This document shows, in pieces, positions 38,412-62,997 of a DNA stretch of 64,000 nt (its first letter is position 1; every line of letters begins with the position of its first letter). The notes beneath the pieces were generated by a model, which worked only from the letters and a program-made list of their open reading frames with translations, was not told the DNA's origin and ran no database searches. Made by a program: the position numbers and the translations under genes. The stretch is from an uncultured Gammaproteobacteria bacterium (GTDB lineage Bacteria; Patescibacteriota; Microgenomatia; UBA10105; UBA927): assembly GCA_964361785.1 (NCBI GenBank), contig CAYIBX010000003.1:4769-68768 (forward strand). Reading direction: 5' to 3'.

Positions 38412-40283
38412 TTATGTGACGGTTTCGACGGTAAACACTGGGCGATTGGTTGATGGGGGCGCGGGCACAGCAGGCGCTTGTGGTTCTAGTTTTTTCACTG
38501 CGTCTTGTGGTTTGGTGGTGGCCAGCGCGTGTTCTTCTGGGCTTGCCACCACTCTCATGGCAGCATGTGCGGGACCAGCAAAAAACAATCCTTGTCCAAC
38601 GTCTGACGAGAGGAGAAGATGTTTTTCTCCTTCGGACAAGAAAAACACGTCTGCTATTTTTTCTATCGCCGCGGTTGATTGCTTTAGGAGTATCTGCATG
38701 CTGCTGTTTTGGATGATCGCGGTGCCCATGTCTGTGCCCAAGAAATCTTCGACATCTTGTGTAATTGTGGTCATCCCAAGAAAGTATTTGCGCGCGCGCT
38801 TAGCGATGCTATAGAGAAACGTAGCCGAGTCTTGATACTTCATAAGATACCACGCCTCGTCTACGATAAGAAGCCGACGTCTCTTATCGTGTCTAATTTT
38901 GTTCCAGATAAAGTCCAAGATGAGAAACATGGCAATGGGCCGTAATTCGTCTTCAAGATCGCGTATAGAGAAGACAGTAAGCTGATTGCGTATAGCGACA
39001 TTTGTTTGCTGATCAAAGATGCCCACTAAACTTCCTCGGACAAATTTTTCTATGCGGTCAGCTAACCCCTTGGCGAGGGCTTCTTCCATGCCAACGAGCG
39101 TTTTATATAGGTCTTCCATCAGCGGCGGCTCCTTACTGTGGGTTTCAGGATCAGGAGTAATGCCTTTTTGTTTATAGGTTAAAATGAGCGCGCGATCCAA
39201 AAGCGCATCTTCAGAGGGCGTTAATTTTCCCATAACGACACGGAAGAATCCGTGAAGTGATAGTATTTTTTGGCTCAGTTCCCCAGCGTTTGCGTCTTGC
39301 CCCGCAAGAAGCGCTAAATCAAACGGATTTATTTTTGTTTCCGATCCGAAACGGAAGCGCACATACTCGCCGCCCATCGCAAAGGTAAGCGCTTCGTATT
39401 CATTTTCAGGATCAAGAATTATAACTTCCGTGTCAAACATCATTGATCGCATGATTTCAAGCTTAATCATAAAACTTTTACCGCTACCAGACTTACCAAA
39501 AACAACCGCGTTTGCATTCTCTAAAGTGAAGCGATCAAAGATAATTAACGAATCATTGTGCTCGTTTAGCCCATATAATATTCCTTCGTTGGCGGTAAGT
39601 TCTGAAGTGGTAAACGGAAAAGTTGTAGCGAGTGACGTTGTGTCCATGTTTCGTGTGACCATGAGCCTATCTTTACCCATAGGGAGGGTTGTTTTAAATC
39701 CCTCTTCCATCTGAAGTACCGCCTTTTTAGTGACGATAAGAAGTGATCCCAAAGTTGCCTCTACTTGGTTGGTGGTTTTATCAAGGTCTTCTTTAGATTT
39801 TGCCGGTATCGTGACGTAGAGTGCAAATTGGAAAAATCGTTCTGACCCCTTTGCTAATTCTTGTTGAAGCCCCAAGGCATCTTCAAGCGCCACCTGAATG
39901 GAAGGCTCTATCACGCGACCGCGTTTAAGATCTGATTGTATGGTGGCTTCCATTTCTCCCACCTTGCGTTTTAAACTTTCAAGCACTTCTTCTGATCGAG
40001 TGGGGTAGATGTACATAGAAATGTTTAGCGTATGGTTAAATGATATAAGAGGCTCTAACCAATTAGCAGAAACAAATCGAGGATAGCCAGCAGTAAACAG
40101 TGTTCTGTAGTGCCAATCGCCTATCGTTACATCGTTGAAATCTACCTCAATTGCCGGAGGAGATATGACGTCCAAGATGGAGATTGATTCCTCAGTAGTA
40201 GCAGTGGTGACTGAAATTTTATTGCCAGCTTGGGTTTTTGTAAATGTACCAAGAAGTGATGATAAAAGCGTGTTATTTGACAT
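38412..40283 (-). CDS. virB4: type IV secretion/conjugation ATPase VirB4 (TrbE/PrgJ family)
   Basis: Walker A 'GKSGSGKS', Walker B 'LLIVDEAWYLM' and an N-terminus '...TAGYPRFV' typical of VirB4. The start was moved to 'MSNNTLL'. Confidence 0.85.
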   Translation of the reverse strand: MSNNTLLSSLLGTFTKTQAGNKISVTTATTEESISILDVISPPAIEVDFNDVTIGDWHYRTLFTAGYPRFVSANWLEPLISFNHTLNISMYIYPTRSEEVLESLKRKVGEMEATIQSDLKRGRVIEPSIQVALEDALGLQQELAKGSERFFQFALYVTIPAKSKEDLDKTTNQVEATLGSLLIVTKKAVLQMEEGFKTTLPMGKDRLMVTRNMDTTSLATTFPFTTSELTANEGILYGLNEHNDSLIIFDRFTLENANAVVFGKSGSGKSFMIKLEIMRSMMFDTEVIILDPENEYEALTFAMGGEYVRFRFGSETKINPFDLALLAGQDANAGELSQKILSLHGFFRVVMGKLTPSEDALLDRALILTYKQKGITPDPETHSKEPPLMEDLYKTLVGMEEALAKGLADRIEKFVRGSLVGIFDQQTNVAIRNQLTVFSIRDLEDELRPIAMFLILDFIWNKIRHDKRRRLLIVDEAWYLMKYQDSATFLYSIAKRARKYFLGMTTITQDVEDFLGTDMGTAIIQNSSMQILLKQSTAAIEKIADVFFLSEGEKHLLLSSDVGQGLFFAGPAHAAMRVVASPEEHALATTKPQDAVKKLEPQAPAVPAPPSTNRPVFTVETVT

Positions 40284-40938
40284 GTGTCTCCTTTTTGATA
40301 ATAAGACGTGATATGTCAGGCGGGGGAGACCCAGCGTTGTATGCAGAAAAGTAGAGCTTGATAAGTTGTTCGGTAGAAAGCTGTGAGGCGCGAAGCCCCA
40401 CACGCGTTAAAAGTCGCACCAAATGATCCTTTTTGGGAATAAGTACTATTTCTGCGCGATCTAAGATGTATTTTTTTTCAAACGGAAGACCTGATTTTTT
40501 TGTATTAAAAAGCGCTGACGCAGAAATTCCAAGTTCCACAGCAGTAAACGGGAGGACGATATAAAATTTTTTATCTAGCACCACCTTTTCTTTGACCATT
40601 GAAGCCACGAATGAACGATAACTATGAATGCTTTTTTGAAGCTTTGGATTTTTTTGAGTTTTTTCTTTTTCTTCAAGAAGCCCTAAGTATGCAGATATGT
40701 CTTTGTGTATGGTTTGGATAATAAGCTGTATGGGAAACGAAAGCGAATTTAAGAGTCCAGCGTAAGAATAGATGATTGCATCTTGCTCCTTTTCTGATAA
40801 TAACCCAAAATTTACGGCAGTTGTTGCTATGACTAGCGCCACTGATCCGTCAGAAAAAAGGATGAGGTCGCGATCCACGTCAGCAATCTCGGTGAAAAGT
40901 TGTGTGGAGGAACGGATGGGTGAGATTGGGTTTGTCAT
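40273..40938 (-). CDS. hypothetical T4SS-associated protein
   Basis: 221-aa ORF with an 11-nt overlap with virB4 and a 4-nt gap from the upstream PrgI-like gene. No transmembrane segment or motif was recognised. Confidence 0.45.
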   Translation of the reverse strand: MTNPISPIRSSTQLFTEIADVDRDLILFSDGSVALVIATTAVNFGLLSEKEQDAIIYSYAGLLNSLSFPIQLIIQTIHKDISAYLGLLEEKEKTQKNPKLQKSIHSYRSFVASMVKEKVVLDKKFYIVLPFTAVELGISASALFNTKKSGLPFEKKYILDRAEIVLIPKKDHLVRLLTRVGLRASQLSTEQLIKLYFSAYNAGSPPPDISRLIIKKETHVK

Positions 40939-40941: not shown

Positions 40942-42189
40942 TTACATTGGTGGTTTACCAAAAATGTCTTGCGCGATTTTATCGCGCGTTACCTGTTTTT
41001 GACTTTTGGCAATTATTTCTAATGCTGGTACTACAGACCCGTTTAGCGTTACCTGCGCGCGATCAAAGGTAAAGCGCCCTCGTGGATCTTCAATTTCTAT
41101 GACATAGACGCCATTTGGTAGTGGTGTGGATGCCGCAAGTTGTCCTAATTTGTTGGTTTTTAACGCTCGCATAGGGATGCCGTCGGCGTTTGTAACCGTA
41201 ATAAGAATGGCAGGAAGAAATCCTCCCGCACCGTCTTTTACGATACCCGTAATGACGTTTGGAACACTGGTAAATCGCGGGATGCCAGCTCGCACCCCCG
41301 CATCTATGGAACTGAAAGGGCGCACAGTAGGCGCGCTGTTTGTGATTGATGCGACAAGGTCTTTTTCTTCTGCATTGGTGGCTTTTTTTGTGGAGGACGT
41401 GTTTTCAATTTGTCTTTTGAGACGGATAAGCTCGTCGTCTGTGTGCGTTTTTTCTTTGAGCACATTGGTCAACTGCGCTTGTAATTCAAGCACACGATCA
41501 TCCGTGACGTTTTTTGTGGAAAGCTGGTTGCGAAGTGCGGCGACTGCCGCTTCTAATTCTTGTATGTGATGGGTGTCTACAGGAGCCTGTGCGGGCCCAG
41601 CCAGGGGCTGGTCAGCCTTTGGCTGAGGTTCAGGTGGTTTTACCCCTGTGACAGACCTCGTCGTTGGCGTTACCCCTTGTGACGGATGAGAAGGGGTCGT
41701 AAAAAATCCCAATACCTGATCGATAAAGGATGTTGGTTTATGTGAGGAGATGATTTTTGGCGTTGCCGTGAGCGATGGTGGCGCATAAATATGTGAGACT
41801 GATGGTTGTGTGGGCGACACGAGAACTGTAACCCCTTGTGTTCCTTGTGGAGGCGTTGTAGGCGGCATTTTTGATATTTTTGGAGCTGCGATAATCGGTG
41901 CGTGACCCTTTTGCCAAATATATTGCGTCGGACTATAAATACTTTTGAAAAAAGAAAATACCCAGACATCCATAGGTCGTTCTTCTATAGGAACAAACGC
42001 AAATCCTACACCGAGTAAGGCAAATCCGGCAGCAAGAGGCCATGTGAAGAAAAAAGGCAAGGGCAACTTGTATGAAATAATTGCCAAGACGCCCCCAGCA
42101 CACAAGTACCCAAATTGCTTTAAGGTCATGTCGCCGACTAAGCGAAATTGAAATGTGGTAACGTTTTGAGGAACTGGATGTTGCTCCAT
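40942..42189 (-). CDS. PrgI/VirB3-like two-TM protein fused to a Pro/Thr-rich linker, a coiled coil and a C-terminal beta-rich domain
   Basis: 'FQFRLVGDMTLKQFGYLCAGGVLAIISYKL' matches the PrgI-family motif (FGLTxRQLxYLxxG). It is followed by two transmembrane helices, a 'PPTTPPQGTQG...' linker and a C-terminal 'VYVIEIEDPRGRFTF'. Confidence 0.55.
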   Translation of the reverse strand: MEQHPVPQNVTTFQFRLVGDMTLKQFGYLCAGGVLAIISYKLPLPFFFTWPLAAGFALLGVGFAFVPIEERPMDVWVFSFFKSIYSPTQYIWQKGHAPIIAAPKISKMPPTTPPQGTQGVTVLVSPTQPSVSHIYAPPSLTATPKIISSHKPTSFIDQVLGFFTTPSHPSQGVTPTTRSVTGVKPPEPQPKADQPLAGPAQAPVDTHHIQELEAAVAALRNQLSTKNVTDDRVLELQAQLTNVLKEKTHTDDELIRLKRQIENTSSTKKATNAEEKDLVASITNSAPTVRPFSSIDAGVRAGIPRFTSVPNVITGIVKDGAGGFLPAILITVTNADGIPMRALKTNKLGQLAASTPLPNGVYVIEIEDPRGRFTFDRAQVTLNGSVVPALEIIAKSQKQVTRDKIAQDIFGKPPM

Positions 42190-42313
42190 ATAACCATTGT
42201 AGGAATGGATGTGACATGTGACAAGGGGCACAAAGCGCATCAGGACCGTGAAAACTCGTATTTTAATGTTTCACGAACACGGAGAATTTTTTCACGTATG
42301 ATAAGATAGATGC

Positions 42314-44488
42314 ATGGAAAAGGGTAATGTTTTGTTGGAAGTTACAAATAGTCGTGACAGCGAAGAAAAACCCCTTGCGATGGAACAGGTGTTTGCAGCA
42401 CTAGGCGGAAAATCCCACATTGGTTTTATAGAATGGCTGATGGGGAAACGTGAACACCATGAATTTATTAGTTTTGAAATCGTTGCAGTAAACAGCCAAG
42501 TTCATTTTTTTGTGGGCGTATCTTTAGAGAAACGCTCGTATATTGAGAGTCAACTTACTGCTCAATATCCAAGAGTAATGTTGACGCCTGTTTCAGATTA
42601 TGCCCAAGCATTTTTTTCGTTGCCCCACGCGACAGGAACTATTGTTTTGTCCAACAGTTTCTACTACCCACTAAAAACGTACAAAGATTTAAAAGACGTG
42701 GATATATTAGCAAGTGTTTTAGGGCAAATCGCAAAATTACCAAAACAGCAAGCAGTTGCTTTGCAGTTATGCATTACGCCCGCTGGAAACAGCTGGCAAC
42801 GGAAGGGAGCAAGCGTGATTGCGGCGGGTGTTCCCGATGCATCATCAACCACGGGACGAACAAAAACTCATCCGCACAGTCGCATTATCGAACAAAAACT
42901 TTCCCAAGTCGGGTTTCTTTCCGCGTTTCGTGTTGTAAGCGTTGGACAAACAGAGACTCAAGCAGACGGGCTGCTTTCAAGTATCGCGGGGACGCTCGGT
43001 GTATATACGCTGGGCGAAGGAAATGCGCTTGTCATTACCAAGCATGCGTTTTGGCAAAAGAAGGCATTTATGAACGGGTTCATTAAGAGAAATGGTCAGG
43101 GTGCTCTAAAGGGTCAAATATTGGGCAACGCAGAATTAGCTTCCGTTTGGCATCCGCCAGGATTAGGACTCTCGATGATAAAAAATATACAATGGGGTGT
43201 GCGCCTTTTGGGTGAACCCCCCGCAAATCTTCCGATTGCTACTGATGATGAGGAGCAACGAAAACATATTAATTTTTTTGCGCGCACAGAATTCAAAAAT
43301 ACGATAACCACGTTTGGTGTTGAGCGGACGGATAGAAGAAAGCATCTCTATATAATCGGAAAAACAGGGACAGGGAAGTCAACCCTCATTGCAAATATGG
43401 CGATTAACGACATGAAAAATGGTGAAGGGGTGGCAGTCATTGATCCGCATGGAGATCTTACAGATATTTTGTTAACATACGTGCCATCACACCGCATTAA
43501 TGATGTCGCATATTTAGACCCTGCTGATATTGAGCACCCGTTTCACTTAAATCCTTTGGAGGTAAAAAATCCAGCATATAGAGATTTGGTGGCATCAGGC
43601 ATAGTCTCGATATTTTATAAGCTGTATCACATGAGTTGGGGGCCCCGCCTTGAATATATTTTACGTAATACTATCTTGACGCTCACACACGTTCCCGACT
43701 CTACATTTTTAGATATTCCGGAACTTCTCACGAATGAAAAATTTCGTATGAAGGTCATAGAAAATCTTGATGACAAAGTGCTCAAGAGTTTTTGGGTAAA
43801 TGAGTTTAATAAATTATCACCTCAACTTCGCAGCGAATCCATCTCACCAATTTTAAATAAAGTGGGGCAATTTTTGTCGTCGCAAACTATACGAAATATT
43901 GTCGGCAAACCGCATTCAACAATTGATCTTGAGAACATGATGAATGAAGGGAAAATTATTCTCGTCAATTTGTCTCAAGGAAAGCTCGGAGAAGATACCA
44001 GCGCCCTTTTGGGAGCCATGCTTATCACTAAAATTCAGTTAGCCGCGATGAATAGAGTGTACATTGAAGAAGAAAGGCGGAGAGATTTTTATTTGTATGT
44101 CGATGAATTTCAAAATTTTGCGACGCAATCATTTATCAAAATTTTATCAGAAGCCAGAAAGTATCGCCTAGATTTAACACTTGCCAATCAGTATGTGGGA
44201 CAAATAGATGAGGAGGTGCAAAAAGCAATTTTTGGCAATGCAGGCTCACTCATTTCATTTTCTGTGGGAGCGGCAGATAGTAGGTTATTATCTCGCGAAT
44301 TTGGAGAACGGTATAAAGAGGATGAATTAGTGTCTCTTGGCAATTATCAGATTGTATTAAAGCTCTCCATTGACAATCAAACATCACCGCCGTTTTCAGC
44401 GACGACCCTGCCGCTTCCGCGATCTGTCAACCAAAACAGAGAGAAAGTAGTGAGGGGCTCTCGCGAGAGGTATACAAAAATGCTTTAG
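42314..44488 (+). CDS. VirD4/TraG/TraD-like type IV coupling-protein ATPase (FtsK/HerA superfamily)
   Basis: Walker A 'IIGKTGTGKSTLIANMA', Walker B 'FYLYVDEFQNFAT' and 'VIDPHGDL'. It is divergent from the virB4 operon. No N-terminal transmembrane segment is evident. Confidence 0.6.
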   Translation: MEKGNVLLEVTNSRDSEEKPLAMEQVFAALGGKSHIGFIEWLMGKREHHEFISFEIVAVNSQVHFFVGVSLEKRSYIESQLTAQYPRVMLTPVSDYAQAFFSLPHATGTIVLSNSFYYPLKTYKDLKDVDILASVLGQIAKLPKQQAVALQLCITPAGNSWQRKGASVIAAGVPDASSTTGRTKTHPHSRIIEQKLSQVGFLSAFRVVSVGQTETQADGLLSSIAGTLGVYTLGEGNALVITKHAFWQKKAFMNGFIKRNGQGALKGQILGNAELASVWHPPGLGLSMIKNIQWGVRLLGEPPANLPIATDDEEQRKHINFFARTEFKNTITTFGVERTDRRKHLYIIGKTGTGKSTLIANMAINDMKNGEGVAVIDPHGDLTDILLTYVPSHRINDVAYLDPADIEHPFHLNPLEVKNPAYRDLVASGIVSIFYKLYHMSWGPRLEYILRNTILTLTHVPDSTFLDIPELLTNEKFRMKVIENLDDKVLKSFWVNEFNKLSPQLRSESISPILNKVGQFLSSQTIRNIVGKPHSTIDLENMMNEGKIILVNLSQGKLGEDTSALLGAMLITKIQLAAMNRVYIEEERRRDFYLYVDEFQNFATQSFIKILSEARKYRLDLTLANQYVGQIDEEVQKAIFGNAGSLISFSVGAADSRLLSREFGERYKEDELVSLGNYQIVLKLSIDNQTSPPFSATTLPLPRSVNQNREKVVRGSRERYTKML

Positions 44489-49317: not shown

Positions 49318-50925
49318 TTAGTGCTCTTCACCCTGTCCTTCGCCGGTGAGCGCCCCAAATCCTTGTTGTGAGCCTTTTCTGACGACTTGTGAAGGGGATG
49401 CCCCGTGCCCCTTGCTTCCAAACATGCTTTTGATCATACTTCCTTGATACCAGATATTCATAAGAGATCCTGCGCCTTGACCAAGAGGCCCAAACATGGC
49501 GCCAAGGCCTCCTGGGATTGCTGGTTCTGCCTTCATAGATTTTTGAATACCAGCAACAAACGTTGGAATGATAAGAATCATGCCAAGTCCTATAATTCCC
49601 GCCATCCCGTAACTACCCCCCCCTGATGATAATAGCGGAGGCGCCCAAATAGTGGCTGCGTTATCAGTGTATGTGAGAATAGCAGACACCAAAAGAAGAA
49701 TAATCGTGATCGGAAACACGATGAGCTTTGATACTAAATGTCGAAGCCATGAGTTAAATGATGTAGATCCTGGAATTGCTTCTAGAACGAGCTGAAATGG
49801 TGCGGTCAGAAGGGCAATAATGATGTTTATATACGCATCAATGAGCATGAAGAGGATGCGAATAAATCCAAACAGGAGCACGAGTAAAATAATGAGAATT
49901 AAAAGCACAGGACCGCTAAAAAGAGAAAGTCCTAGAAGAGCGCCCTTGGTTCCTCCAATAAAGGCACCAAGAAGACCAGGGATGATAAAAGAGAGCTTTT
50001 GTACAACTGGATTTGTACCCCCAAACACGTCTCCAATATCATTCCATGCACCTAAGCCACTGCCAAAGAAAAATCGTGTAAATCCCCAGAATCCACCACT
50101 GAATAAATAATCGGTTGCTTCTTTGGTCGTCCATGTCAAGTTAACAGGCTGTCCTGAAAGATAGTTTGGTATTGCAGCAGCTTTGCACACACTACTAGAG
50201 ACGCTGAGCGCTTTCCCAATGCTATCACCGATAGAGCTGTTGGCAATCATGGAGATGGCTAGGGCAATAAGAAGATACATACCGTCTATAAGAAGCCCGA
50301 CAATTGCGTAGGAAAATGTGACCAGAAGCAGGGCTACAACTATACGGGGGATTGAGTTTTGTACCGTGACGACAGTTTTGGGGTCAATTTTTTTGCGAAA
50401 CATAACCATGAGTCCAACCATGATGAGAATGACTGCCAGTATTCCATACGAGATGTCTCGAAATACTTTCCAGAGAGGAAGCAGTGTGGCAAGGCCCGAA
50501 AATCCTATGCCCTGTGCGTTGACACGAGGTGTTACAAATCCTAATGACCGACCAATGTCCATGGCATATTCAGCGGTAGACGCAGGGGGGTTGGTATAGA
50601 TTGCTGTAATAGACCCACCAATGCCGCTGAGCGCACCTTTTTGGAAATTAAGAGCTGTTGGACACTGTGCGTCTGTCGTGTCCCATGCGCCACCAATCAT
50701 GATGGATAACGCGTTGATGCTATTATTGGTGGTCGCAAAATTTGATCCTTCTAAATTCAGGGTCCCCTCATTTGATTTTTTGAGTACTTGGGTAAAACAC
50801 GACATTGATTGACCAATCCACGAGCATTCTTCGTTTTCTAGTGCTAAAACAGAAAAGATAGGATAACTTACGGCAAGAAATGTTAAAAAGAGCGCCGTAA
50901 TAAGATATTGTATTGTTTTTTTCAT
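49318..50925 (-). CDS. VirB6/TrbL-like polytopic inner-membrane T4SS protein
   Basis: 535-aa ORF with a signal or transmembrane segment, a ~130-aa extracytoplasmic loop, at least six transmembrane helices and a Gly-rich C-terminus. It lies immediately downstream of the pilin array. Confidence 0.55.
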   Translation of the reverse strand: MKKTIQYLITALFLTFLAVSYPIFSVLALENEECSWIGQSMSCFTQVLKKSNEGTLNLEGSNFATTNNSINALSIMIGGAWDTTDAQCPTALNFQKGALSGIGGSITAIYTNPPASTAEYAMDIGRSLGFVTPRVNAQGIGFSGLATLLPLWKVFRDISYGILAVILIMVGLMVMFRKKIDPKTVVTVQNSIPRIVVALLLVTFSYAIVGLLIDGMYLLIALAISMIANSSIGDSIGKALSVSSSVCKAAAIPNYLSGQPVNLTWTTKEATDYLFSGGFWGFTRFFFGSGLGAWNDIGDVFGGTNPVVQKLSFIIPGLLGAFIGGTKGALLGLSLFSGPVLLILIILLVLLFGFIRILFMLIDAYINIIIALLTAPFQLVLEAIPGSTSFNSWLRHLVSKLIVFPITIILLLVSAILTYTDNAATIWAPPLLSSGGGSYGMAGIIGLGMILIIPTFVAGIQKSMKAEPAIPGGLGAMFGPLGQGAGSLMNIWYQGSMIKSMFGSKGHGASPSQVVRKGSQQGFGALTGEGQGEEH

Positions 50926-50977: not shown

Positions 50978-51310
50978 TTATTGAAATTCAGGGACGGTAA
51001 ATGTGGTGATGCTCTCAATTCCTGTAAATCTGCCGATAAGATTTATAATAAGATACGCCGCAGACATGATGATAAGTCCCATAATGGCTTGGCTTATAGT
51101 GCCTCGTGCCTGTTCGAGCTTTTTAGGGTCCCCTGATGAGAAGAGAAAGTTAAATCCACCGACCAAGAGCATAAGAAAGAGCGCAATGCCCCCAAACGCA
51201 ACTACCGCCCTCACGATGTTTTCAAAGAGCGGGCCAAGACAAGAAAGTGTCGCTACGTCCTCAGAGTTTGGTACGCCTTTAGCAAAACAAGCAGTATCCC
51301 ATGCAGCCAT
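50978..51310 (-). CDS. VirB2/TrbC-like pilin paralog 1
   Basis: Two-helix hydrophobic protein containing 'LLVGGFNFLFSSGDPKKLEQARGTISQAIMGLIIM', which shares the family motif GGF..TSGGD.KL..A...I..A..GL. Confidence 0.6.
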   Translation of the reverse strand: MAAWDTACFAKGVPNSEDVATLSCLGPLFENIVRAVVAFGGIALFLMLLVGGFNFLFSSGDPKKLEQARGTISQAIMGLIIMSAAYLIINLIGRFTGIESITTFTVPEFQ

Positions 51311-51329
51311 AAAGAGAGTATATCAAAAA

Positions 51330-51662
51330 TTAGTACGGCTTGGGGAAGTTTAAGCTTCCGCCGATGATCTGCACGCCCAAGAAGTTTTGGACGAGATTCA
51401 TGATGGCCCATGCAGCTCCTACGATGATAAGACCAACAATTGCATGGGTAATTTTATTTCTGGCTTCTTCCATGCCTGCCTTGTCGCCGCCAGAGGTAAT
51501 CCACTTTATGCCACCCAGCAGTAAATATAAGAAAGCCAAAAGTGAAGCGATGATAAGCGTCGTGCCGACAAGCGCTGAAATAAGCTGACCAATGTCAGTA
51601 ATTTTGACGACATCTGTAGGCTGTTTGATTTCGAGTTTCGCTTGCGCAAATATTTTTTCCAT
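51330..51662 (-). CDS. VirB2/TrbC-like pilin paralog 2
   Basis: 'LLLGGIKWITSGGDKAGMEEARNKITHAIVGLIIV'. Confidence 0.6.
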   Translation of the reverse strand: MEKIFAQAKLEIKQPTDVVKITDIGQLISALVGTTLIIASLLAFLYLLLGGIKWITSGGDKAGMEEARNKITHAIVGLIIVGAAWAIMNLVQNFLGVQIIGGSLNFPKPY

Positions 51663-51739
51663 AGATGTAATTATATCCTACTTACCATTCTTGCGCAAGA
51701 AATTGATCCTTGTCAAGGACCATCGTTAGTATAGGCACA

Positions 51740-52087
51740 TTAGCTTCCAACGGTGGGAATAGGAATGTTTGGAAAATCAATGCCAATAAATTGGCTGACC
51801 AATGTAGTGATAGCCCAGACCGTGCCGACGATGATAAGGCCTACTAACGCGTTGGTAATTTTGTCTCTAGCCGATGTAAGTTTTGTTTTATCCCCTCCTG
51901 ATGTAATCCAATCAAATCCGCCCAGAAGTAAATAGAGAAAAGCGATGATAAAACAAAGTATCATGATAGCCCCTATTACACCGCCCAATACTGCTCCGAG
52001 AGCAGAAGCGCCAGCTTCTGTGCCGCCGCTTCCAAGACTGCCAGGGAGAACGGGGTTTGTAATTTGTGTGAGCAAACGATTGGTCAT
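51740..52087 (-). CDS. VirB2/TrbC-like pilin paralog 3
   Basis: 'LLLGGFDWITSGGDKTKLTSARDKITNALVGLIIV'. Confidence 0.6.
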   Translation of the reverse strand: MTNRLLTQITNPVLPGSLGSGGTEAGASALGAVLGGVIGAIMILCFIIAFLYLLLGGFDWITSGGDKTKLTSARDKITNALVGLIIVGTVWAITTLVSQFIGIDFPNIPIPTVGS

Positions 52088-52092
52088 AGTGT

Positions 52093-52464
52093 TTATTGTG
52101 AGAGAGAATCCATAATGCCACCAGGATTTGATAGTGTGAAATCGACACCAAAGAATTGACCAGCAAGAGAAAGTATTGCCCAGCCTACAACCACGACAAG
52201 AAGACCAATAAGTGAGTTTGTTATCCGGTCGCGAGCTGATTGCAGCTTGGCTTTATCGCCTCCTGATGTGATCCAGTTAAATCCGCCGATAAGAAATTGA
52301 AAAATAAACCATATAAATCCTGAGATGGTCATGAAGCCTATTATGGAAGAAACGAGTCGCGATATGTTTATAAGGCCTTCGGTGCCGTCGGAGACATTGG
52401 CAAATGGACCGAGCCCACCGCCTTCACCGATTCGCCCTAATTCTTGTGCAAATATTGTTTTCAT
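52093..52464 (-). CDS. VirB2/TrbC-like pilin paralog 4
   Basis: 'FLIGGFNWITSGGDKAKLQSARDRITNSLIGLLVV'. Confidence 0.6.
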   Translation of the reverse strand: MKTIFAQELGRIGEGGGLGPFANVSDGTEGLINISRLVSSIIGFMTISGFIWFIFQFLIGGFNWITSGGDKAKLQSARDRITNSLIGLLVVVVGWAILSLAGQFFGVDFTLSNPGGIMDSLSQ

Positions 52465-52466
52465 TA

Positions 52467-52823
52467 TTATGGACTGACTATTTTCGGATTGAGTATAAAC
52501 GTTGCGTCATTAAAGAGAAGTTTTCCCACCACAGCCGCGAGAGCAAAAGACCCCACGATCACGACAAGTCCTAATAGCGAATTCCAAATTTTATCCCACG
52601 CAGAGTTTAGTGCCTTTGTGTCTCCGCCAGCGTTCATATATTGAAAGCCTGCGATAATAAAATTAAAGAGCGCTAAAATACCGCCCCCTACAAATACAAG
52701 GCGTAATATATTTGTGATAAGCAGTCCAAATCCACCGAAAACATTTGCGTAACCGCCGATTAAAGGGCTGGTGACCGATCCTACTATGTCATCTTCTGCA
52801 AAGATGCGTTCTATAAGCGTCAT
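52467..52823 (-). CDS. VirB2/TrbC-like pilin paralog 5 (divergent)
   Basis: 'FIIAGFQYMNAGGDTKALNSAWDKIWNSLLGLVVI'. Confidence 0.55.
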   Translation of the reverse strand: MTLIERIFAEDDIVGSVTSPLIGGYANVFGGFGLLITNILRLVFVGGGILALFNFIIAGFQYMNAGGDTKALNSAWDKIWNSLLGLVVIVGSFALAAVVGKLLFNDATFILNPKIVSP

Positions 52824-52827
52824 ATCG

Positions 52828-53133
52828 TTATGGTATCACAGGGTTTAATATCTGGATACCAGTGAGCGTTTCTATAAGTTGTATTATCCAAAATGATGCA
52901 AAAATAAGAAGGAGCCCAACAACGGCTCCTGTGAGCGCCGCTTTTCCTTTTTCTGCGTGTTTAGGGTTGCCAGCGGAAGTGATGATTTGAAATCCGCCAA
53001 AGACGATCATAAACAATGTTACTACCCCAGCGATTACAAATACGTTTGACACAATGACTTTTACAAATCCGCCAAACGTTGTTATGGTGGAGGGGGAAAG
53101 CTCTGAGAGTTCGACTGCGTGTACAATGTTCAT
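52828..53133 (-). CDS. VirB2/TrbC-like pilin paralog 6 (divergent)
   Basis: 'VFGGFQIITSAGNPKHAEKGKAALTGAVVGLLLI'. Confidence 0.55.
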   Translation of the reverse strand: MNIVHAVELSELSPSTITTFGGFVKVIVSNVFVIAGVVTLFMIVFGGFQIITSAGNPKHAEKGKAALTGAVVGLLLIFASFWIIQLIETLTGIQILNPVIP

Positions 53134-53187
53134 ATTTTAAGTGTACGAAAACTCGCACAGAATCTCAAGATCTTGTATACTCACCGC

Positions 53188-53727
53188 ATGGACGACGTCA
53201 CCCTCGTTTCTCAGCTTCTTAAAAAGGATCGTCGCAGCGCTGGCATCTTTTACCAGACGTACGCGCCGAAGATTAAAAGGTACGTGCATGCAAAGGTAGG
53301 AGTATACGAAGACGCAGAAGATTTGGTGCAAGATATTCTTTTTTCGTTTCTTGAGGCTGCTCGTGATTTTCGTGGGAATAGCAGTATACAGACATACCTT
53401 TACTCTATAGCACATCACAAAGTGATTGATTATTATCGTAAGAAAAAAATTAAACAACTCGTGTTTTCTCAAATGCCACAATTGGAATCGTTGATTTCTC
53501 CGCTTCTTGATCCACAAGCGCAGCTTGATGCGACACTGGTGAGTGAAAAGATACAGCACGCGTTGGGAACATTGCTCCCCATTCATCGCACTGTGTTGCT
53601 TCTCAAATACCTTGACGATGTTTCAGTATCGGGTATAGCAAAGCAGTTGTCCATAACGCTCAAAAGCGCTGAGTCACGATTGTTTCGTGCACGACGAGCC
53701 TTTGTAGCATCATTTCTTTCGTTATAA
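53188..53727 (+). CDS. ECF-type RNA polymerase sigma-70 factor
   Basis: Region 2 'EDLVQDILFSFLEAARDFRG...TYLYSIAHHKVIDYYRKK' and region 4 'IHRTVLLLKYLDDVSVSGIAKQLSITLKSAESRLFRAR'. Confidence 0.8.
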   Translation: MDDVTLVSQLLKKDRRSAGIFYQTYAPKIKRYVHAKVGVYEDAEDLVQDILFSFLEAARDFRGNSSIQTYLYSIAHHKVIDYYRKKKIKQLVFSQMPQLESLISPLLDPQAQLDATLVSEKIQHALGTLLPIHRTVLLLKYLDDVSVSGIAKQLSITLKSAESRLFRARRAFVASFLSL

Positions 53728-53728
53728 T

Positions 53729-53959
53729 ATGGCAGATCTTTTGTTTACAAATTTTATGAAACGTTGGGAAGAGGTGACTGAATTACCACCCCAACAGTTT
53801 GGCAGGCTTACCAATGTATATAAGATGGTGACTGGACGCATAAAAACTATGCCATGGCTTGCTTTTTTTGGCGTGAGTTCGCTTGTGGTTGGTTCTGTGT
53901 ACTTCTTTTTAGGTTCAACGATTGTGTGGATAGTCTCACTTTTGCAAAAAGGATTTTAA
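53729..53959 (+). CDS. small membrane protein, putative anti-sigma factor partner
   Basis: 76-aa ORF starting 2 nt after the sigma-factor stop, with a single transmembrane helix 'LAFFGVSSLVVGSVYFFL'. Confidence 0.4.
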   Translation: MADLLFTNFMKRWEEVTELPPQQFGRLTNVYKMVTGRIKTMPWLAFFGVSSLVVGSVYFFLGSTIVWIVSLLQKGF

Positions 53960-54001: not shown

Positions 54002-54619
54002 ATGCTCGTTGCGCTCCTTCAATCAGGTTTTGCGTTTTTTCGTCACTTTGTGGGAATTATCATTTCGCCCTACGAGACCTATAGGGATATCGAAAAACGT
54101 GGTCGTATAGGAGAGATGGTGTATATCGGTCTTTTAGTTGGGCTGTATTTTTCTCTTTCAAGTGTGGTAAAAATAGCTTCATTTCACCCATTACTTCTTT
54201 CTCGGTACGCATTCGTATTATTCGCTTCAGCACTGAGTGGATTTGGGCTCATCGTTTCAGTGCTGGTTTTGACTGGGCGATTATTAGGGCGACAGACAAG
54301 TATCGGACGCATAAGTCTTTTGTGGGCGTATACGCTTGTGCCGACGGTTGTATGGTTTTTATGTACGTCACTTTTATATATATTTATTCCTCCACCTAGA
54401 ACCACCAATATCTCTGGAGTAGCCTTAAGCATCGTGTACCTTGTTGTTTCAGCAATGATTTTTTGGTGGAAATTGACGCTTTCGTATCTTGCGTTGCGGT
54501 TTGGTTTGAAGCTTGATTTTAGCAAAATTTTGATTTTCGTTTTGGTTTCAGTACCCATACTTATTCTATGGTCATACATGATGTATGCCATTGGCATATA
54601 TAAGGTACCATTTTTATGA
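54002..54619 (+). CDS. Yip1-like polytopic membrane protein
   Basis: 205-aa ORF with five transmembrane segments and an N-terminal 'SPYETYRDI' resembling Yip1/DUF1282. Confidence 0.4.
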   Translation: MLVALLQSGFAFFRHFVGIIISPYETYRDIEKRGRIGEMVYIGLLVGLYFSLSSVVKIASFHPLLLSRYAFVLFASALSGFGLIVSVLVLTGRLLGRQTSIGRISLLWAYTLVPTVVWFLCTSLLYIFIPPPRTTNISGVALSIVYLVVSAMIFWWKLTLSYLALRFGLKLDFSKILIFVLVSVPILILWSYMMYAIGIYKVPFL

Positions 54620-55755
54620 AATTGCGATCAGCACTATCAGTAAAATCTCGTCGCGAAGAAGTAGAGAAAGAGACTCGTGTATTGTTAACCAACATTGGGA
54701 CGTTTAGCGTCGATGAGAATGTGGCGAGCAAAAGAAATTGTGAAAACATGATTGGCGTCGCTCAAGTGCCGTTGGGTATTGCAGGACCCCTCGCACTGTT
54801 AACTGTTAAAGGTGAATTGTTAAATGTTTATCTTCCTCTCGCAACGACTGAAGGAGCGTTGGTGGCGTCGGTTAGTCGCGGCTGCAAGGCGATAACGGAG
54901 TCTGGAGGAGCAGGTGTAGATAGTTACCGTGTTGGGGCCACCCGCGGTCCGGTTTTTAAGGTCAAGAATTTGCATGAAAGCGATGTATTTAATAAATTTT
55001 TGGAAGAACACTTCGAGAGTTTGCAAAAAATTACAAAGACAACCTCAAACCACTTAACACTTACAAAATATATGGATCGCGGAGTCGGTCGGTATAGATA
55101 TGTACGATTTGTGTTTGACACAGAAGACGCCATGGGCATGAACATGGTAACAATTGCGACACAAAAACTAGTTGAATATATTGAGCTCCATACGTCTTCA
55201 CGATGTATTTCCTTGGCGGGAAATTACGACGTCGACAAAAAACCTTCGTGGCTCAATGTTATTGAAGGACGAGGTATAAAAGCGTGGGCGGAGGTGACGC
55301 TTCCGTCAAAAATACTCAAAGACGTTTTAAAAACGACTGCTCAAAAATTTTATGACGTGTGGCTTTCAAAGTGCATGATTGGCAGTGCCATGGCAGGATC
55401 GATGGCATTTAATGCCCAGTTTGCAAATATAATTGCTGCCGTATTTTTAGCGACGGGACAGGATCTTGGGCATGTGGGCGAGGCAAGCTTGGGTGTGACA
55501 ACCGCTGAGGTAGTGAATGGAAAAGACTTATATGTAAGTATATATCTTCCTGATCTTATGGTAGGTATCGTGGGTGGAGGCACAGGCCTTGCAACACAGA
55601 AAGAGGCGTTATCGATTGTGAGAGCCGCAAATAGTAAACAATTTGCTGAAATAATTGCAGGTGCGGTGCTAGCAGGAGAAATTTCATTATTAGCGTCGCT
55701 TAGTGAGGGGACGTTAGCAAAAGCACATCAAGAACTAGCAAGAGGAAAGAGATAA
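54616..55755 (+). CDS. hmgA: HMG-CoA reductase, class I (archaeal-type)
   Basis: 'ENMIGVAQVPLGIAGPL', 'EGALVASVSRGCKAI' and 'DAMGMNMV' are conserved HMGR motifs. Confidence 0.85.
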   Translation: MKLRSALSVKSRREEVEKETRVLLTNIGTFSVDENVASKRNCENMIGVAQVPLGIAGPLALLTVKGELLNVYLPLATTEGALVASVSRGCKAITESGGAGVDSYRVGATRGPVFKVKNLHESDVFNKFLEEHFESLQKITKTTSNHLTLTKYMDRGVGRYRYVRFVFDTEDAMGMNMVTIATQKLVEYIELHTSSRCISLAGNYDVDKKPSWLNVIEGRGIKAWAEVTLPSKILKDVLKTTAQKFYDVWLSKCMIGSAMAGSMAFNAQFANIIAAVFLATGQDLGHVGEASLGVTTAEVVNGKDLYVSIYLPDLMVGIVGGGTGLATQKEALSIVRAANSKQFAEIIAGAVLAGEISLLASLSEGTLAKAHQELARGKR

Positions 55756-55756
55756 T

Positions 55757-57945: not shown

Positions 57946-58238
57946 AATTATGGAGAAATCAAAAGTCGACCACGAACTTGGTGGGGCTTTTGGGCACAGT
58001 GGAAACATGGACCATTGTTCGCGTACCACCTGCAGGATTTTCTGATCAAGCACCGTATGCAGTTGTTTTGGTTCGGTTAAAGTCCGGCCAATCTATAGAA
58101 GCGCAGTTGGTGGATTCGTATAAAGACGGTCAAATTGATGTGTATAAAGACATGAACGTACGAACTGTTATTCGCCGCATCACACATCCAGATAGTGATG
58201 GTGTGATATCATATGGAATTAAGGTGAAACCCATATGA
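57930..58238 (+). CDS. DUF35 OB-fold scaffold protein of the thiolase/HMGCS complex
   Basis: 102-aa OB-fold-like ORF that overlaps the thiolase stop, in the conserved archaeal gene order. Confidence 0.6.
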   Translation: MQSPVKLWRNQKSTTNLVGLLGTVETWTIVRVPPAGFSDQAPYAVVLVRLKSGQSIEAQLVDSYKDGQIDVYKDMNVRTVIRRITHPDSDGVISYGIKVKPI

Positions 58239-59194: not shown

Positions 59195-59197
59195 TTA

Positions 59198-59500: not shown

Positions 59501-59509
59501 GTTTCCTCC

Positions 59510-61422: not shown

Positions 61423-61432
61423 ATTATATGAA

Positions 61433-61470: not shown

Positions 61471-61476
61471 CTATTC

Positions 61477-62170: not shown

Positions 62171-62503
62171 TTAGAGAAATGATTGTTCAATAGAATTCCA
62201 ACCAAAAATTATTCCCAAAAGCTGTACCATCCAATAGGCGGCAAAAATGAGGAAAAATCCAATTAAGGCATTCATTAAACGACCCTTTCCTGCCTCAAGT
62301 TGTTTTGGGTTACCAGCGGAGGTGAGCATAGTAAATCCGGAAGAGACAATCATCAAGAGTAATCCAAATCCCGCAAACGCGAATATATACGGAATTGCTG
62401 CTTGGACTATCTGACCAATTTTAGCATCAGCAAATGCAAATCCTGCGGGTCCTTCTACGGTATAGGATCCTATGTTTACTGATTGTGCAACTACCTTTTC
62501 CAT
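62171..62503 (-). CDS. VirB2/TrbC-like pilin paralog 7
   Basis: 'VSSGFTMLTSAGNPKQLEAGKGRLMNALIGFFLI'. Confidence 0.55.
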   Translation of the reverse strand: MEKVVAQSVNIGSYTVEGPAGFAFADAKIGQIVQAAIPYIFAFAGFGLLLMIVSSGFTMLTSAGNPKQLEAGKGRLMNALIGFFLIFAAYWMVQLLGIIFGWNSIEQSFL

Positions 62504-62508: not shown

Positions 62509-62997
62509 TTATCCAAATTCGGGTATTCCCAGTATATCTACACCAATAATTTTTAGGATAAAAATAGAAAATATGATAAGAAGAAGGCCCGAGATGGCGC
62601 CACCCAACAATTCTTTGGCTGCGTGAAGCTTTTCAGGATTGCCAGTCGACGTCATCGTCTGAAAGCCCGAGACGAGAATAATGAGAAACGCAAGGCCTCC
62701 ACCGATACTAATGCCAAGCTTTAAAAAATTGGAGATAAAGTCGCTCGGATTGCCCCCTTTTCCAACGCACCCAAACGCTGTCCATGCGCCTCCACCGTCA
62801 AAACACGTCTTGCATAGGCTTTGATTTCCATCTTTCAGAAAGCTGCAAGCTCCTGTGCCTGTTGAGGGGATTGTACCGCTTCCTGCTTTTGCGCCTGAAA
62901 GCCCTTGGGCGTACAGAGGTCGTGTAAACGTGCCTATAAGTGGCAATATGGCCACAAAGAGGAATATAGCAAGTCCCAACGGCATAAATCGTTTCAT
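62509..62997 (-). CDS. VirB2/TrbC-like pilin paralog 8 with an N-terminal Cys/Gly-rich extension
   Basis: A signal peptide is followed by 'GTGACSFLKDGNQSLCKTCFDGGGAWTAFGC' and the pilin core 'LVSGFQTMTSTGNPEKLHAAKELLGGAISGLLLI'. Confidence 0.5.
   Translation of the reverse strand: MKRFMPLGLAIFLFVAILPLIGTFTRPLYAQGLSGAKAGSGTIPSTGTGACSFLKDGNQSLCKTCFDGGGAWTAFGCVGKGGNPSDFISNFLKLGISIGGGLAFLIILVSGFQTMTSTGNPEKLHAAKELLGGAISGLLLIIFSIFILKIIGVDILGIPEFG

What the first reader, a model, noticed from the sequence alone, without database searches (positions are those of the whole stretch)
50978..53133. Tandem array of six divergent VirB2/TrbC-like pilin paralogs, plus two more at 62.2-63.0 kb
Six consecutive minus-strand genes of 101-123 aa share a two-helix architecture and the motif GGF(N/D)W(I)TSGGDK.KL..AR..IT.AL.GLIIV. 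They have diverged strongly outside the motif; paralogs 5 and 6 retain only ~40% of the motif positions, and paralog 1 has a changed variant (FLFSSGDP). Intergenic gaps are 2-77 nt. Conjugative T4SSs normally carry a single VirB2 gene. A multi-paralog array of this kind suggests antigenic or phase variation, host-range adaptation, or a heteropolymeric pilus, in what is likely an episymbiotic organism. Paralog 8 adds a secreted Cys-rich module.
Basis: seen in the sequence. Interest (0 to 1): 0.8.

Follow-up and report, generated by a model that had tools for sequence, protein, structure and literature searches.

The report
Conserved pilin-like gene array, Gottesmanbacteria T4SS
Eight small membrane-protein genes beside a type IV secretion system in a groundwater ultra-small bacterium are real, but they are a published kind of "pilin array", and here they look like a fixed set of specialised subunits, not a variation system.

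Summary
Six minus-strand genes (50978-53133) and two more (62171-62997) all match Pfam PF18895 T4SS_pilin. They sit in a monoderm-type T4SS cluster next to oriC, in a Candidatus Gottesmanbacteria genome from Hainich groundwater.

It is not new as a kind. Quiñonero-Coronel et al. 2025 (PMC12102498) catalogued 441 such arrays of 2-11 genes in Patescibacteria. A six-pilin array is essential in Southlakia (PMC10633639, PMC12857230).

The antigenic or phase-variation reading is not supported:
- The same six genes occur in the same order, with the same flanks, in about 25 other Gottesmanbacteria genomes. Orthology is 1:1 by position.
- dN/dS against the closest relative is 0.015-0.13.
- The array has no repeats or switch elements.

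P2 (51330-51662) is the most conserved gene of the locus and has its own conserved promoter. My best model is one major plus seven minor VirB2-like subunits of a heteromeric pilus or stalk, encoded directly upstream of a VirB6-like gene on the same strand.

Homology to canonical VirB2/TrbC was not detectable by sequence. The fold search was non-specific.

Two side observations are unexplained. Seven paralogs have a conserved short N-terminal leader (hydrophobic-hydrophobic-Ala, then usually Gln) with no hydrophobic core. Public data also contain polyproteins with tandem pilin domains.

The parts
52828..53133 (-). P6, first gene of the array (101 aa). PF18895 pilin-like. Short leader MNIVHAV.
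   Evidence: ORF. PF18895 at 30.6 bits. Positional orthologues are 41-54% identical in three full-length loci and are present in about 22 further genomes.
53140..53168 (-). Promoter-like site upstream of P6 (TTGAGA-17-TACACT). The -10 hexamer ends 6 nt before the ATG, so the transcript would be leaderless or nearly so.
   Evidence: Consensus scan. TTGAC-N17-TACACT is conserved 6-12 nt upstream of the P6 ATG in nearly all of about 20 genomes. Function is inferred, not shown.
52467..52823 (-). P5 (118 aa), a divergent pilin-like paralog (AGFQYMNAGGD core).
   Evidence: PF18895 at 22.4 bits, below the cut-off. Orthologues are 61-64% identical.
52093..52464 (-). P4 (123 aa), pilin-like paralog. 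Leader MKTIFAQ.
   Evidence: PF18895 at 23.2 bits. Orthologues are 45-66% identical.
51740..52087 (-). P3 (115 aa), pilin-like paralog. The N-terminus M..LAQI(V/T)NPVLP is conserved among orthologues.
   Evidence: (30.2 bits).
51670..51716 (-). Conserved composite promoter in the 77-nt P3-P2 gap: TTGACA-N13-TTGCGCAA[G/A]AATG-N10/11-TATAAT.
   Evidence: One search found TTGACA-18-AAGAAT. The whole element is present in 20 of 21 genomes, even though synonymous sites in the neighbouring genes are saturated. Function is inferred.
51330..51662 (-). P2 (110 aa), candidate major subunit. It is the most conserved gene of the locus.
   Evidence: PF18895 at 40 bits, the best of the eight. It has 763 homologues, and the top 120 are 71-95% identical. 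Orthologues are 76-85% identical in three full-length loci and 98% in the closest relative, against 41-66% for the other paralogs. dN/dS is 0.015. The loop is 98% conserved. The AF2 model is a hairpin with helices at 21-56 and 61-95.
50978..51310 (-). P1 (110 aa), last gene of the array. Variant core FLFSSGDP. Two conserved Cys in the N-terminal tail.
   Evidence: (35.6 bits).
49318..50925 (-). 535-aa polytopic membrane protein 52 nt downstream of P1. VirB6-like, a candidate assembly platform.
   Evidence: No Pfam or NCBIfam hit. In the Foldseek search of the AF2 model (pLDDT 70), the top 8 PDB hits are all TrwI/VirB6 of R388, with E 0.016-0.27 and probability up to 0.99. It is syntenic in all related genomes. 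The support is suggestive, not significant.
62171..62503 (-). P7 (110 aa), pilin-like. Second gene of the separate two-gene locus.
   Evidence: PF18895 at 37.3 bits. The P8-P7 pair lies next to uppS in two other genomes as well.
62509..62997 (-). P8 (162 aa): signal peptide (MKR...LYAQ), a four-Cys module, then the pilin core.
   Evidence: PF18895 at 27.3 bits. It has 117 homologues. The four Cys are invariant and the signal peptide is conserved.
38412..40403 (-). Context: VirB4-like ATPase.
   Evidence: TraG P-loop at 91 bits and AAA_10.
40273..40938 (-). Context: TrsD-like protein (221 aa).
   Evidence: NCBIfam TrsD at E 8.6e-6, below the cut-off. Pfam TraC-like (weak) in the orthologous locus.
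40942..42240 (-). Context: PrgI (VirB3-like) fusion protein.
   Evidence: PF12666 PrgI at 27.5 bits.
42314..44488 (+). Context: type IV coupling protein (VirD4-like).
   Evidence: TrwB_AAD_bind, TraG-D_C and DUF87.
53188..53727 (+). Context: ECF sigma factor, divergent from P6. A 76-aa putative membrane anti-sigma gene follows at 53729-53959. This synteny is conserved.
   Evidence: Sigma70_r2 and r4_2. The start at 53188 is taken from the called gene in L001. Same arrangement.

Best explanation
The eight genes encode PF18895-type, VirB2-like two-helix membrane proteins. They belong to the monoderm-type (MPF-FATA-like) type IV secretion system of a Candidatus Gottesmanbacteria (Microgenomatia, Patescibacteria) genome. 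The set is ancient and fixed, and its members are not interchangeable.

Proposed roles. P2 is the highly conserved major subunit and has its own promoter. P1 and P3-P8 are minor or accessory subunits. Together with the VirB6-like protein encoded directly downstream on the same strand, they would build a heteromeric pilus-like or stalk-like conduit at the contact with the host cell.

Proposed topology. The basic inter-helix loop (GGDK..AR.KI) faces the cytoplasm in the membrane pool and the lumen in the assembled structure. The variable N- and C-terminal tails face outward. In P1 and P8 the N-terminal tail carries disulfide-capable Cys.

What is shown: family membership, T4SS context, fixed synteny and orthology, purifying selection, and conserved promoter-like elements.

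What is inferred: filament formation, the major/minor roles, the topology, and what the system transports.
For: Family and context:
- All eight have PF18895 as best hit.
- P2 also weakly matches NCBIfam 'Mbov_0395 family pilin-like conjugal transfer protein'.
- Its only plasmid-database relative is a gene of that family, 4 kb from a VirB4 gene in a Pontibacillus plasmid.
- The cluster holds VirB4-, TrsD-, PrgI/VirB3- and T4CP-like genes and a VirB6-like gene. It starts next to dnaA/dnaN at the GC-skew minimum.

Fixed set:
- The order P6-P5-P4-P3-P2-P1 is identical in L006-L031.
- In the three full-length loci compared, each paralog is closest to its positional orthologue: 41-85% against 23-53% for other pairs.
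- The P8-P7 pair is also syntenic.

Selection:
- dN/dS against the closest relative is 0.015-0.126, similar to the housekeeping neighbours at 0.05-0.23.

P2 as the major subunit:
- It is the most conserved gene of the locus.
- A composite promoter upstream of it is conserved in 20 of 21 genomes.
- A second conserved promoter lies upstream of P6.

Topology:
- There are two hydrophobic helices. The loop carries more Lys/Arg than Asp/Glu in six of eight paralogs (equal in P5 and P8), and the tails are acidic or neutral.
- Cys pairs occur only in the N-terminal tails.

Literature:
- The equivalent pilin series is essential in Southlakia (PMC10633639; PMC12857230).
Against: - No filament has been seen for any Patescibacterial T4SS. 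The papers read here call it a possibility.
- Relatives occur in Firmicute and Mycoplasma conjugation modules. Gram-positive conjugative T4SSs are generally described as lacking pili (PMC10633639).
- Homology to structurally characterised VirB2/TraA pilins is not demonstrable. There is no PF04956 hit, no PDB sequence hit, and the hhalign probability is 0.7%.
- The major/minor assignment rests on conservation and promoters, not on expression data.
- dS is near saturation (0.9-1.9), so the dN/dS values are approximate, and site-specific positive selection in the tails was not tested.
Confidence: 0.55

Rival explanations
1. Alternative-use pilins. The paralogs are interchangeable major subunits, deployed one at a time or in varying mixtures, to evade host or phage recognition or to fit different host strains. 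This is the antigenic variation, phase variation or host-range reading proposed by the first reader and floated in PMC12102498.
For: The paralogs differ most in the presumably exposed N- and C-terminal tails. The non-P2 paralogs evolve faster between species: 41-66% identity against 76-85% for P2. Two separate promoter-like elements would allow differential expression. Precedents in Bartonella and Anaplasma are cited in PMC12102498.
Against: Copy number, order and 1:1 orthology are fixed in about 25 genomes. All copies are intact, and there are no silent cassettes. Gene-wide dN/dS is 0.015-0.13. The array has no inverted repeats, tandem repeats or homopolymer tracts. The array is identical in four independent metagenome assemblies. 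There is no sign of gene conversion, since paralogs stay at 45% identity or less.
Confidence: 0.12
2. Not a pilus. The proteins are integral membrane parts of the translocation channel, or chaperone-like or lipid-organising partners of VirB6 and VirB3. They never polymerise into an extracellular filament, as may be true of their relatives in Firmicute and Mycoplasma conjugation systems.
For: The closest annotated relatives lie in monoderm conjugation modules, and pili are not described there (PMC10633639). Seven of the eight lack a signal peptide. The fold evidence for pilin identity is non-specific.
Against: Eight paralogs, with one extremely conserved and separately promoted, suit a polymer with accessory subunits better than a channel. 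Extracytoplasmic Cys modules suggest surface exposure. Reviewers of the field favour a pilus-like structure, though only as speculation.
Confidence: 0.25
3. An unrelated small-membrane-protein family, such as holin-like or stress peptides, that happens to lie near a T4SS.
For: There is no detectable homology to PF04956 or to solved pilins. Weak spurious hits to several unrelated membrane families appear.
Against: PF18895 is the top hit for all eight. Linkage to T4SS genes is conserved across Gottesmanbacteria. It is seen in a Bacillota plasmid and is reported for 1,135 assemblies in PMC12102498. The pilin series is essential within the T4SS cluster of Southlakia.
Confidence: 0.05

Closest known systems
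VirB2-like pilin arrays of Patescibacteria (Quiñonero-Coronel et al. 2025, Microb Genom, PMC12102498; Wang et al. 2023, Cell, PMC10633639: essential pilin series in the T4SS cluster SEML1_0006-0019 of Southlakia epibionticum)
   Same: PF18895 family. Tandem arrays of 2-11 strongly diverged genes (published mean identity 25%, maximum 54%; here 22-45%). Located within a monoderm-type T4SS cluster with VirB4, VirB3/PrgI and VirB6. The cluster lies next to the replication origin. No relaxase was found among the window proteins scanned. Arrays are reported as especially common in Microgenomatia, the class of this genome.
   Different: This locus has a recognisable coupling protein, which Southlakia lacks. 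The eight genes are split into a six-gene and a two-gene locus that flank an ECF sigma factor and a mevalonate operon. I did not find the following described in the papers read: strict 1:1 orthology across a whole order-level lineage, a dedicated conserved promoter for one paralog, and signal-peptide-less short leaders.
Canonical VirB2/TrbC/TraA conjugative pilins of diderm T4SSs (Pfam PF04956; A. tumefaciens T-pilus, F pilus)
   Same: About 100 aa. A two-helix hydrophobic hairpin with a short basic loop. Encoded within a T4SS cluster near a VirB6-like gene. The predicted topology is N-out/C-out.
   Different: There is no detectable sequence homology. Canonical systems have one gene per system. 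They use a long cleaved signal peptide, whereas seven of the eight here have only a 4-9 residue leader. The host is a monoderm.
Mbov_0395 family pilin-like conjugal transfer proteins (NCBIfam NF045849) of Mycoplasma ICEs and Bacillota conjugation modules
   Same: P2 matches the model at E 6e-6. A Pontibacillus plasmid carries two tandem members, each with a signal peptide, a Cys pair and the core SGFKYITSQGDPKK..EAK. They match the profile of the eight paralogs at 55-57 bits and lie upstream of a CD1110-type VirB4. This is the same design as P8 and P1.
   Different: The score is below the NCBIfam cut-off (25.9 against 40 bits). Only two copies were seen there, against eight here. That context is a mobile element, whereas this locus is chromosomal, next to the origin, and vertically conserved.
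Multi-paralog VirB2 loci of Bartonella and Anaplasma/Rickettsiales
   Same: Several diverged VirB2 copies within one T4SS.
   Different: Those are canonical PF04956 pilins in diderm intracellular pathogens, and they are discussed as variation systems (PMC12102498). Here the copies are fixed, orthologous and under purifying selection.
Major/minor pilin sets of type IV pili and type II secretion pseudopili
   Same: The proposed logic is the same: one abundant conserved subunit plus several low-abundance, diverged paralogs encoded alongside, all required.
   Different: The protein fold, the assembly ATPases and the processing (prepilin peptidase) are unrelated. This is an analogy only.

Membership tests
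Pfam PF18895 T4SS_pilin | Profile HMM score at or above the gathering threshold (26.6 bits) | tested here: met
   P1 35.6, P2 40.0, P3 30.2, P6 30.6, P7 37.3 and P8 27.3 bits pass. P4 (23.2) and P5 (22.4) are just below the threshold, but PF18895 is still their best hit, and they match the paralog profile and their orthologues.
Pfam PF18895 T4SS_pilin | Two hydrophobic helices joined by a short polar, basic loop | tested here: met
   AF2 model of P2: helices 21-56 and 61-95, core pLDDT above 90. Hydropathy and charge analysis of all eight.
Patescibacterial VirB2-like array (PMC12102498) | Two or more pilin genes in tandem, or separated by one non-pilin gene, with low mutual identity, near virB4 | tested here: met
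   Six genes with gaps of 2-77 nt, plus two genes with a 5-nt gap. Identity is 22-45%. The virB4-like gene at 38412-40403 is 10.6 kb away in the same cluster.
Canonical VirB2/TrbC (Pfam PF04956) | Match to the TrbC/VirB2 profile, or detectable homology to a characterised VirB2 | tested here: not met
   No PF04956 hit at E<=1 for any of the eight. No pilin among the PDB sequence hits.
Canonical VirB2/TrbC (Pfam PF04956) | Pilin fold specifically similar to solved conjugative pilins | tested here: inconclusive
Canonical VirB2/TrbC (Pfam PF04956) | Long N-terminal signal peptide removed by signal peptidase | tested here: not met
   Only P8 has a hydrophobic signal peptide. P1-P7 begin 20-36 residues before helix 1, and gaps of 2-5 nt to the upstream gene leave no room for a longer N-terminus.
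Canonical VirB2/TrbC (Pfam PF04956) | Polymerises into an extracellular pilus with bound phospholipid | not testable with these tools
   This needs microscopy or biochemistry.
Antigenic or phase-variable pilin systems | Copy number, order or sequence varies between close strains; silent or partial cassettes; gene conversion | tested here: not met
   The array is identical in four assemblies. Six intact genes occur in the same order in about 25 species-level genomes, and positional 1:1 orthology was measured in three full-length loci. Paralogs never exceed 45% identity.
Antigenic or phase-variable pilin systems | Switch elements: invertible promoter, simple-sequence repeats, homopolymer tracts | tested here: not met
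   There are no meaningful inverted repeats, no tandem repeats in the arrays, and no A9 or G8 tract in the pilin genes.
Antigenic or phase-variable pilin systems | Diversifying selection | tested here: not met
   Gene-wide dN/dS is 0.015-0.126 against L009. Site-level tests were not done, and dS is near saturation.
VirB6/TrbL (the 535-aa neighbouring gene) | Profile match, or a fold match to solved VirB6 | tested here: inconclusive
   No Pfam or NCBIfam hit. The top 8 Foldseek PDB hits are all R388 TrwI/VirB6, but E is 0.016-0.27 and TM-scores are 0.2-0.4.

The most novel reading that the evidence does not exclude
The conserved N-terminal tripeptide (V/I/L)-(F/L/Y)-A, usually followed by Q, may be a maturation site that works without a hydrophobic signal-peptide core. 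It occurs in three settings: at the extreme N-terminus of seven paralogs and their orthologues, at the end of true signal peptides in P8 and in more distant relatives, and at some unit junctions of tandem pilin polyproteins. Pilin units would be trimmed, or released from polyproteins, to a defined Gln N-terminus. They would then assemble in fixed stoichiometry into a heteropolymeric T4SS filament in a monoderm. That would be a pilin-processing route and a filament type with no described counterpart.
Probability: 0.2. Interest if true: 0.65.

Novelty: new member of a known kind. Interest (0 to 1): 0.3.

Why it matters
The Patescibacterial T4SS is essential for epibiotic growth, and its function is unknown (PMC10633639, PMC11665869).

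This locus adds no new kind of system. The comparison does narrow the options. In Gottesmanbacteria the pilin paralogs are a fixed set with 1:1 orthology, under purifying selection, and one paralog is outstandingly conserved and has its own promoter. That argues for a multi-subunit structure and against a variation device. It also names P2 as the first target for antibodies, cryo-ET labelling or heterologous polymerisation.

Relatives occur in Bacillota and Mycoplasma conjugation modules. The pilin-like gene may therefore be native to monoderm T4SSs and need not have been borrowed from diderm systems.

Tried and rejected
1. PF04956, PDB sequence and hhalign searches for homology to canonical VirB2 found nothing.
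3. I did not attempt dN/dS between paralogs. At 22-45% amino-acid identity, synonymous sites are saturated. I used orthologue pairs instead. Even there, only the closest genome (L009), and part of L011, gave finite dS.
4. I first read the repeat CTTGCGCAA in the P3-P2 gap (family D4) as a decayed pilin N-terminus. I rejected this, because it is part of a promoter-like element conserved in 20 of 21 genomes.
5. I tested whether the 'FAQ' motif is a DNA-level element, since TTGCGCAA is a palindrome that also occurs in the promoter. I rejected this, because codons for the motif vary synonymously among orthologues.
6. The search for a signal-peptidase or TraF-like (S26) gene, or a relaxase, among the window proteins scanned found none.
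7. The terminator scan inside the array was not above the shuffle expectation.
8. L005, a 90%-identical relative, has fragmented genes typical of long-read indel errors. I did not use it for evolutionary rates.
Full report
**1.
The six minus-strand ORFs at 50978-53133 code for 110, 110, 115, 123, 118 and 101 aa. I call them P1 to P6, numbered from the 3' end of the array. The two at 62171-62997 (P7, 110 aa; P8, 162 aa) also exist as described. The gaps inside the array, computed from those coordinates, are 4, 2, 5, 77 and 19 nt. An alignment shows the shared core GGF.W.TSGGDK.K...AR..IT.A..GL, with P1, P5 and P6 degenerate. Pairwise identity is 22-45%. All eight have Pfam PF18895 (T4SS_pilin) as their best hit. 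Six are above the gathering cut-off, and P4 and P5 are just below it. A profile built from the eight finds no further member in the window. P8 has a genuine signal peptide followed by a module with four Cys that are invariant in 17 orthologues.

**2. Where it sits.**
The same sequence is on a 75.7-kb ENA contig whose record name begins Hain_H43_01um, which I take to be Hainich groundwater, and in three Logan assemblies. Relatives found by a scan of one genome per GTDB species are mostly labelled Candidatus Gottesmanbacteria or 'Patescibacteria group'. The 'uncultured Gammaproteobacteria' titles on several co-assembled MAGs look like placeholder labels.

The window holds dnaA (32911-34341) and dnaN (34546-35652) at the GC-skew minimum. 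A T4SS cluster follows directly:
- a 730-aa protein with a weak metallopeptidase signature
- a VirB4-like ATPase (38412-40403)
- a TrsD-like protein
- a PrgI/VirB3-like fusion
- a VirD4-type coupling protein (42314-44488)
- a 1201-aa protein with no family match
- a 535-aa polytopic membrane protein (49318-50925)
- the six-gene array

The AF2 model of the 535-aa protein (pLDDT 70) has the TrwI/VirB6 chains of the R388 T4SS as its top eight PDB matches. None reaches E<=0.001. I call it VirB6-like with moderate confidence.

Divergent from P6 lie an ECF sigma factor, a 76-aa putative anti-sigma protein, a Yip1 protein and a complete mevalonate operon ending in uppS. P7 and P8 lie beyond uppS. No relaxase or S26 peptidase was found among the window proteins scanned.

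**3. The array is fixed, not variable.**
P2 has 763 database homologues, and the top 120 are 71-95% identical and 100-147 aa long, mostly 108-113 aa. I fetched the genomic context of four of them, and then 27 genome loci. The same six genes appear in the same order, with the same flanks on both sides. This holds in every Gottesmanbacteria locus long enough to show it, about 25 species-level genomes.

In the three full-length loci compared in detail, each window paralog is closest to the gene at the same position: 41-85% identity, against 23-53% for any other pairing. The P8-P7 pair next to uppS is also conserved. More distant Microgenomatia (MAGs labelled Woesebacteria and Roizmanbacteria) have similar five- or six-gene arrays.

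Against the closest relative (L009), Nei-Gojobori dN/dS values are:

| Gene | dN/dS |
|---|---|
| P1 | 0.126 |
| P2 | 0.015 |
| P3 | 0.097 |
| P4 | 0.043 |
| P5 | 0.063 |
| P6 | 0.109 |
| Neighbouring genes | 0.05-0.23 |

dS is 0.9-1.9, so these values are approximate. The array has no tandem repeats, no long homopolymer tracts and no convincing inverted repeats. None of this fits antigenic variation, phase variation or copy-number switching.

**4. One paralog stands out.**
P2 is more conserved than any neighbour, including the coupling protein and the thiolase. Its inter-helix loop is 98% identical across about 25 orthologues.

The P3-P2 gap is the largest gap in the loci examined. In 20 of 21 of these genomes it contains TTGACA-N13-TTGCGCAA[G/A]AATG-N10/11-TATAAT (window 51716-51670, minus strand). 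This can be read as two overlapping sigma-70-type promoters. A second conserved promoter-like site, TTGAC-N17-TACACT, lies 6-12 nt upstream of the P6 start codon (window 53168-53140).

I infer two transcription units, P6-P5-P4-P3 and P2-P1-(VirB6-like). This was not measured.

**5. Structure and topology.**
The AF2 model of P2 is a two-helix hairpin (helices 21-56 and 61-95, core pLDDT above 90). All eight have two hydrophobic helices. The loop carries more Lys/Arg than Asp/Glu in six of the eight (equal in P5 and P8), and the tails are acidic or neutral. By the positive-inside rule this predicts N-out/C-out, the topology of membrane-pool VirB2/TraA pilins (textbook knowledge, not tested here). 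Conserved Cys pairs occur only in the N-terminal tails of P1 and P8, which fits an extracytoplasmic tail.

**6. Is it VirB2?**

The nearest annotated relatives are monoderm 'Mbov_0395 family pilin-like conjugal transfer proteins'. A Pontibacillus plasmid carries two tandem members upstream of a CD1110-type VirB4, each with a signal peptide and a Cys pair. This suggests the gene is native to monoderm T4SS modules.

**7. What is already known.**
- Wang et al. 2023 (PMC10633639) reported an essential series of predicted pilins inside the Southlakia T4SS cluster.
- Quiñonero-Coronel et al. 2025 (PMC12102498) searched 3,035 Patescibacteria genomes with PF18895 and other profiles. They found 441 arrays of 2-11 genes in 383 assemblies, with mean identity 25% and maximum 54%. 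Arrays were most abundant in Microgenomatia and Saccharimonadia, and T4SS clusters often lay near dnaA. They suggested host-strain versatility by analogy with Bartonella and Anaplasma.
- A 2025 review (PMC12857230) describes six divergent VirB2-like pilins and speculates about a pilus conduit.

The present locus is therefore a new member of a described kind. What I did not find in those texts is the strict positional orthology across a whole lineage, the purifying selection, and the separately promoted, ultra-conserved paralog. Together these favour a fixed heteromeric set over a variation device.

**8. Unexplained side observations.**
P2-P7 and their orthologues begin with a 4-9 residue leader, M-x(1-5)-(V/I/L)-(F/L/Y)-A, followed mostly by Q (sometimes E, D, A or V). 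The same tripeptide ends the true signal peptide of P8 (..LYAQ) and of array members in more distant Microgenomatia (..AYAQ..AFAQ..VYAS). Codons vary synonymously, so the constraint is on the protein. It looks like a signal-peptidase -3/-1 site that has lost its hydrophobic core.

A profile search of 1.84 billion cluster representatives finds 86,403 family members at E<=0.001. The top scorers are single polypeptides with 2 to 17 tandem pilin units. Some carry ..AYAQ or ..VYAQ at unit junctions: 28 of 341 internal units, against 0.6% in shuffled sequences. Whether this marks a processing site is open.

**9. Verdict.**
The 'unusual' premise and the variation hypotheses are not supported. My best model is one major plus seven minor VirB2-like subunits of an essential, origin-proximal, monoderm-type T4SS (confidence about 0.55). 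The main rival is a non-filament membrane role (about 0.25). Interest is modest, because the phenomenon is published. The residual novelty lies in the leader motif and the fixed-set architecture.

Noticed in passing
window 51641-51662, 52443-52464, 52803-52823, 53113-53133, 62483-62503 (N-termini of P2, P4, P5, P6, P7); loci L006-L034: The pilin paralogs that lack a signal peptide start with a conserved short leader, M-x(1-5)-(V/I/L)-(F/L/Y)-A-(Q/E/D/A/V). The same tripeptide ends the real signal peptides of P8 and of more distant relatives. The constraint is at protein level, because synonymous codons vary. It may be a cleavage or maturation site that lacks a hydrophobic core.
   Followed up: partly
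database proteins P0358-P0506, e.g. P0358, P0361, P0368, P0383: The highest-scoring family members in 1.84 billion representatives are single ORFs with 2 to 17 tandem pilin units. Some have ..AYAQ or ..VYAQ at unit junctions (28 of 341 internal units, against 0.6% in shuffles). I did not check their genomic context or whether any are gene-calling artefacts.
   Followed up: partly
L037 8692-9604 (Pontibacillus sp. ALD_SL1 plasmid NZ_CP062975.1): Two tandem pilin-like genes (151 and 145 aa; signal peptide, Cys pair and PF18895-like core) lie about 4 kb upstream of a CD1110-family VirB4. Only one of them is annotated as pilin-like. Monoderm conjugation modules therefore do carry this family, contrary to the usual statement that they lack VirB2-like genes.
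   Followed up: partly
window 12649-12860 (+): Rfam group I catalytic intron (RF00028, 63 bits, full-length model match). It lies between a Fic/DOC gene and an unannotated 190-aa ORF. No rRNA or tRNA host gene was detected around it.
   Followed up: no
window 54616-62169 (+): A complete mevalonate pathway operon: HMG-CoA reductase, HMG-CoA synthase, thiolase with an OB-fold partner, three GHMP-type kinase/decarboxylase genes, and then uppS. It lies between the two pilin loci, and this synteny is conserved across Gottesmanbacteria.
   Followed up: partly
window 53188-53959 (+): An ECF sigma factor and a 76-aa putative membrane anti-sigma gene are divergent from P6, with only a 54-nt spacer. This is conserved in all related genomes. 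A regulatory link to the array is possible but untested.
   Followed up: no
window 45706-49311 (+) and 36212-38404 (-): Two large proteins inside the T4SS cluster have no curated family. One is 1201 aa, syntenic and 63-82% identical in relatives. The other is 730 aa with a weak HEIGH-type metallopeptidase signature at its C-terminus. They are candidate surface or effector components.
   Followed up: no
window 49616-49623 (-): A G8 tract lies inside the VirB6-like gene, coding ..SSGGGS... It is the only such tract in the window, and 28 of 100 shuffles give at least one. It is probably meaningless, but it is the only slippage-prone run near the array.
   Followed up: no
window 6186-6578, 9689-10396, 11878-12264, 14191-15084: PIN-domain, AbiEii-toxin and Fic/DOC genes, plus a tyrosine recombinase, cluster 20-28 kb from the origin side of the window. 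This may be a small accessory or defence island.
   Followed up: no
L009, L010, L013, L017, L020, L022, L024, L026, L028, L031, L035: Many co-assembled MAG records that carry this clearly Patescibacterial locus are titled 'uncultured Gammaproteobacteria bacterium'. This looks like a placeholder or mislabel in the public records.
   Followed up: no
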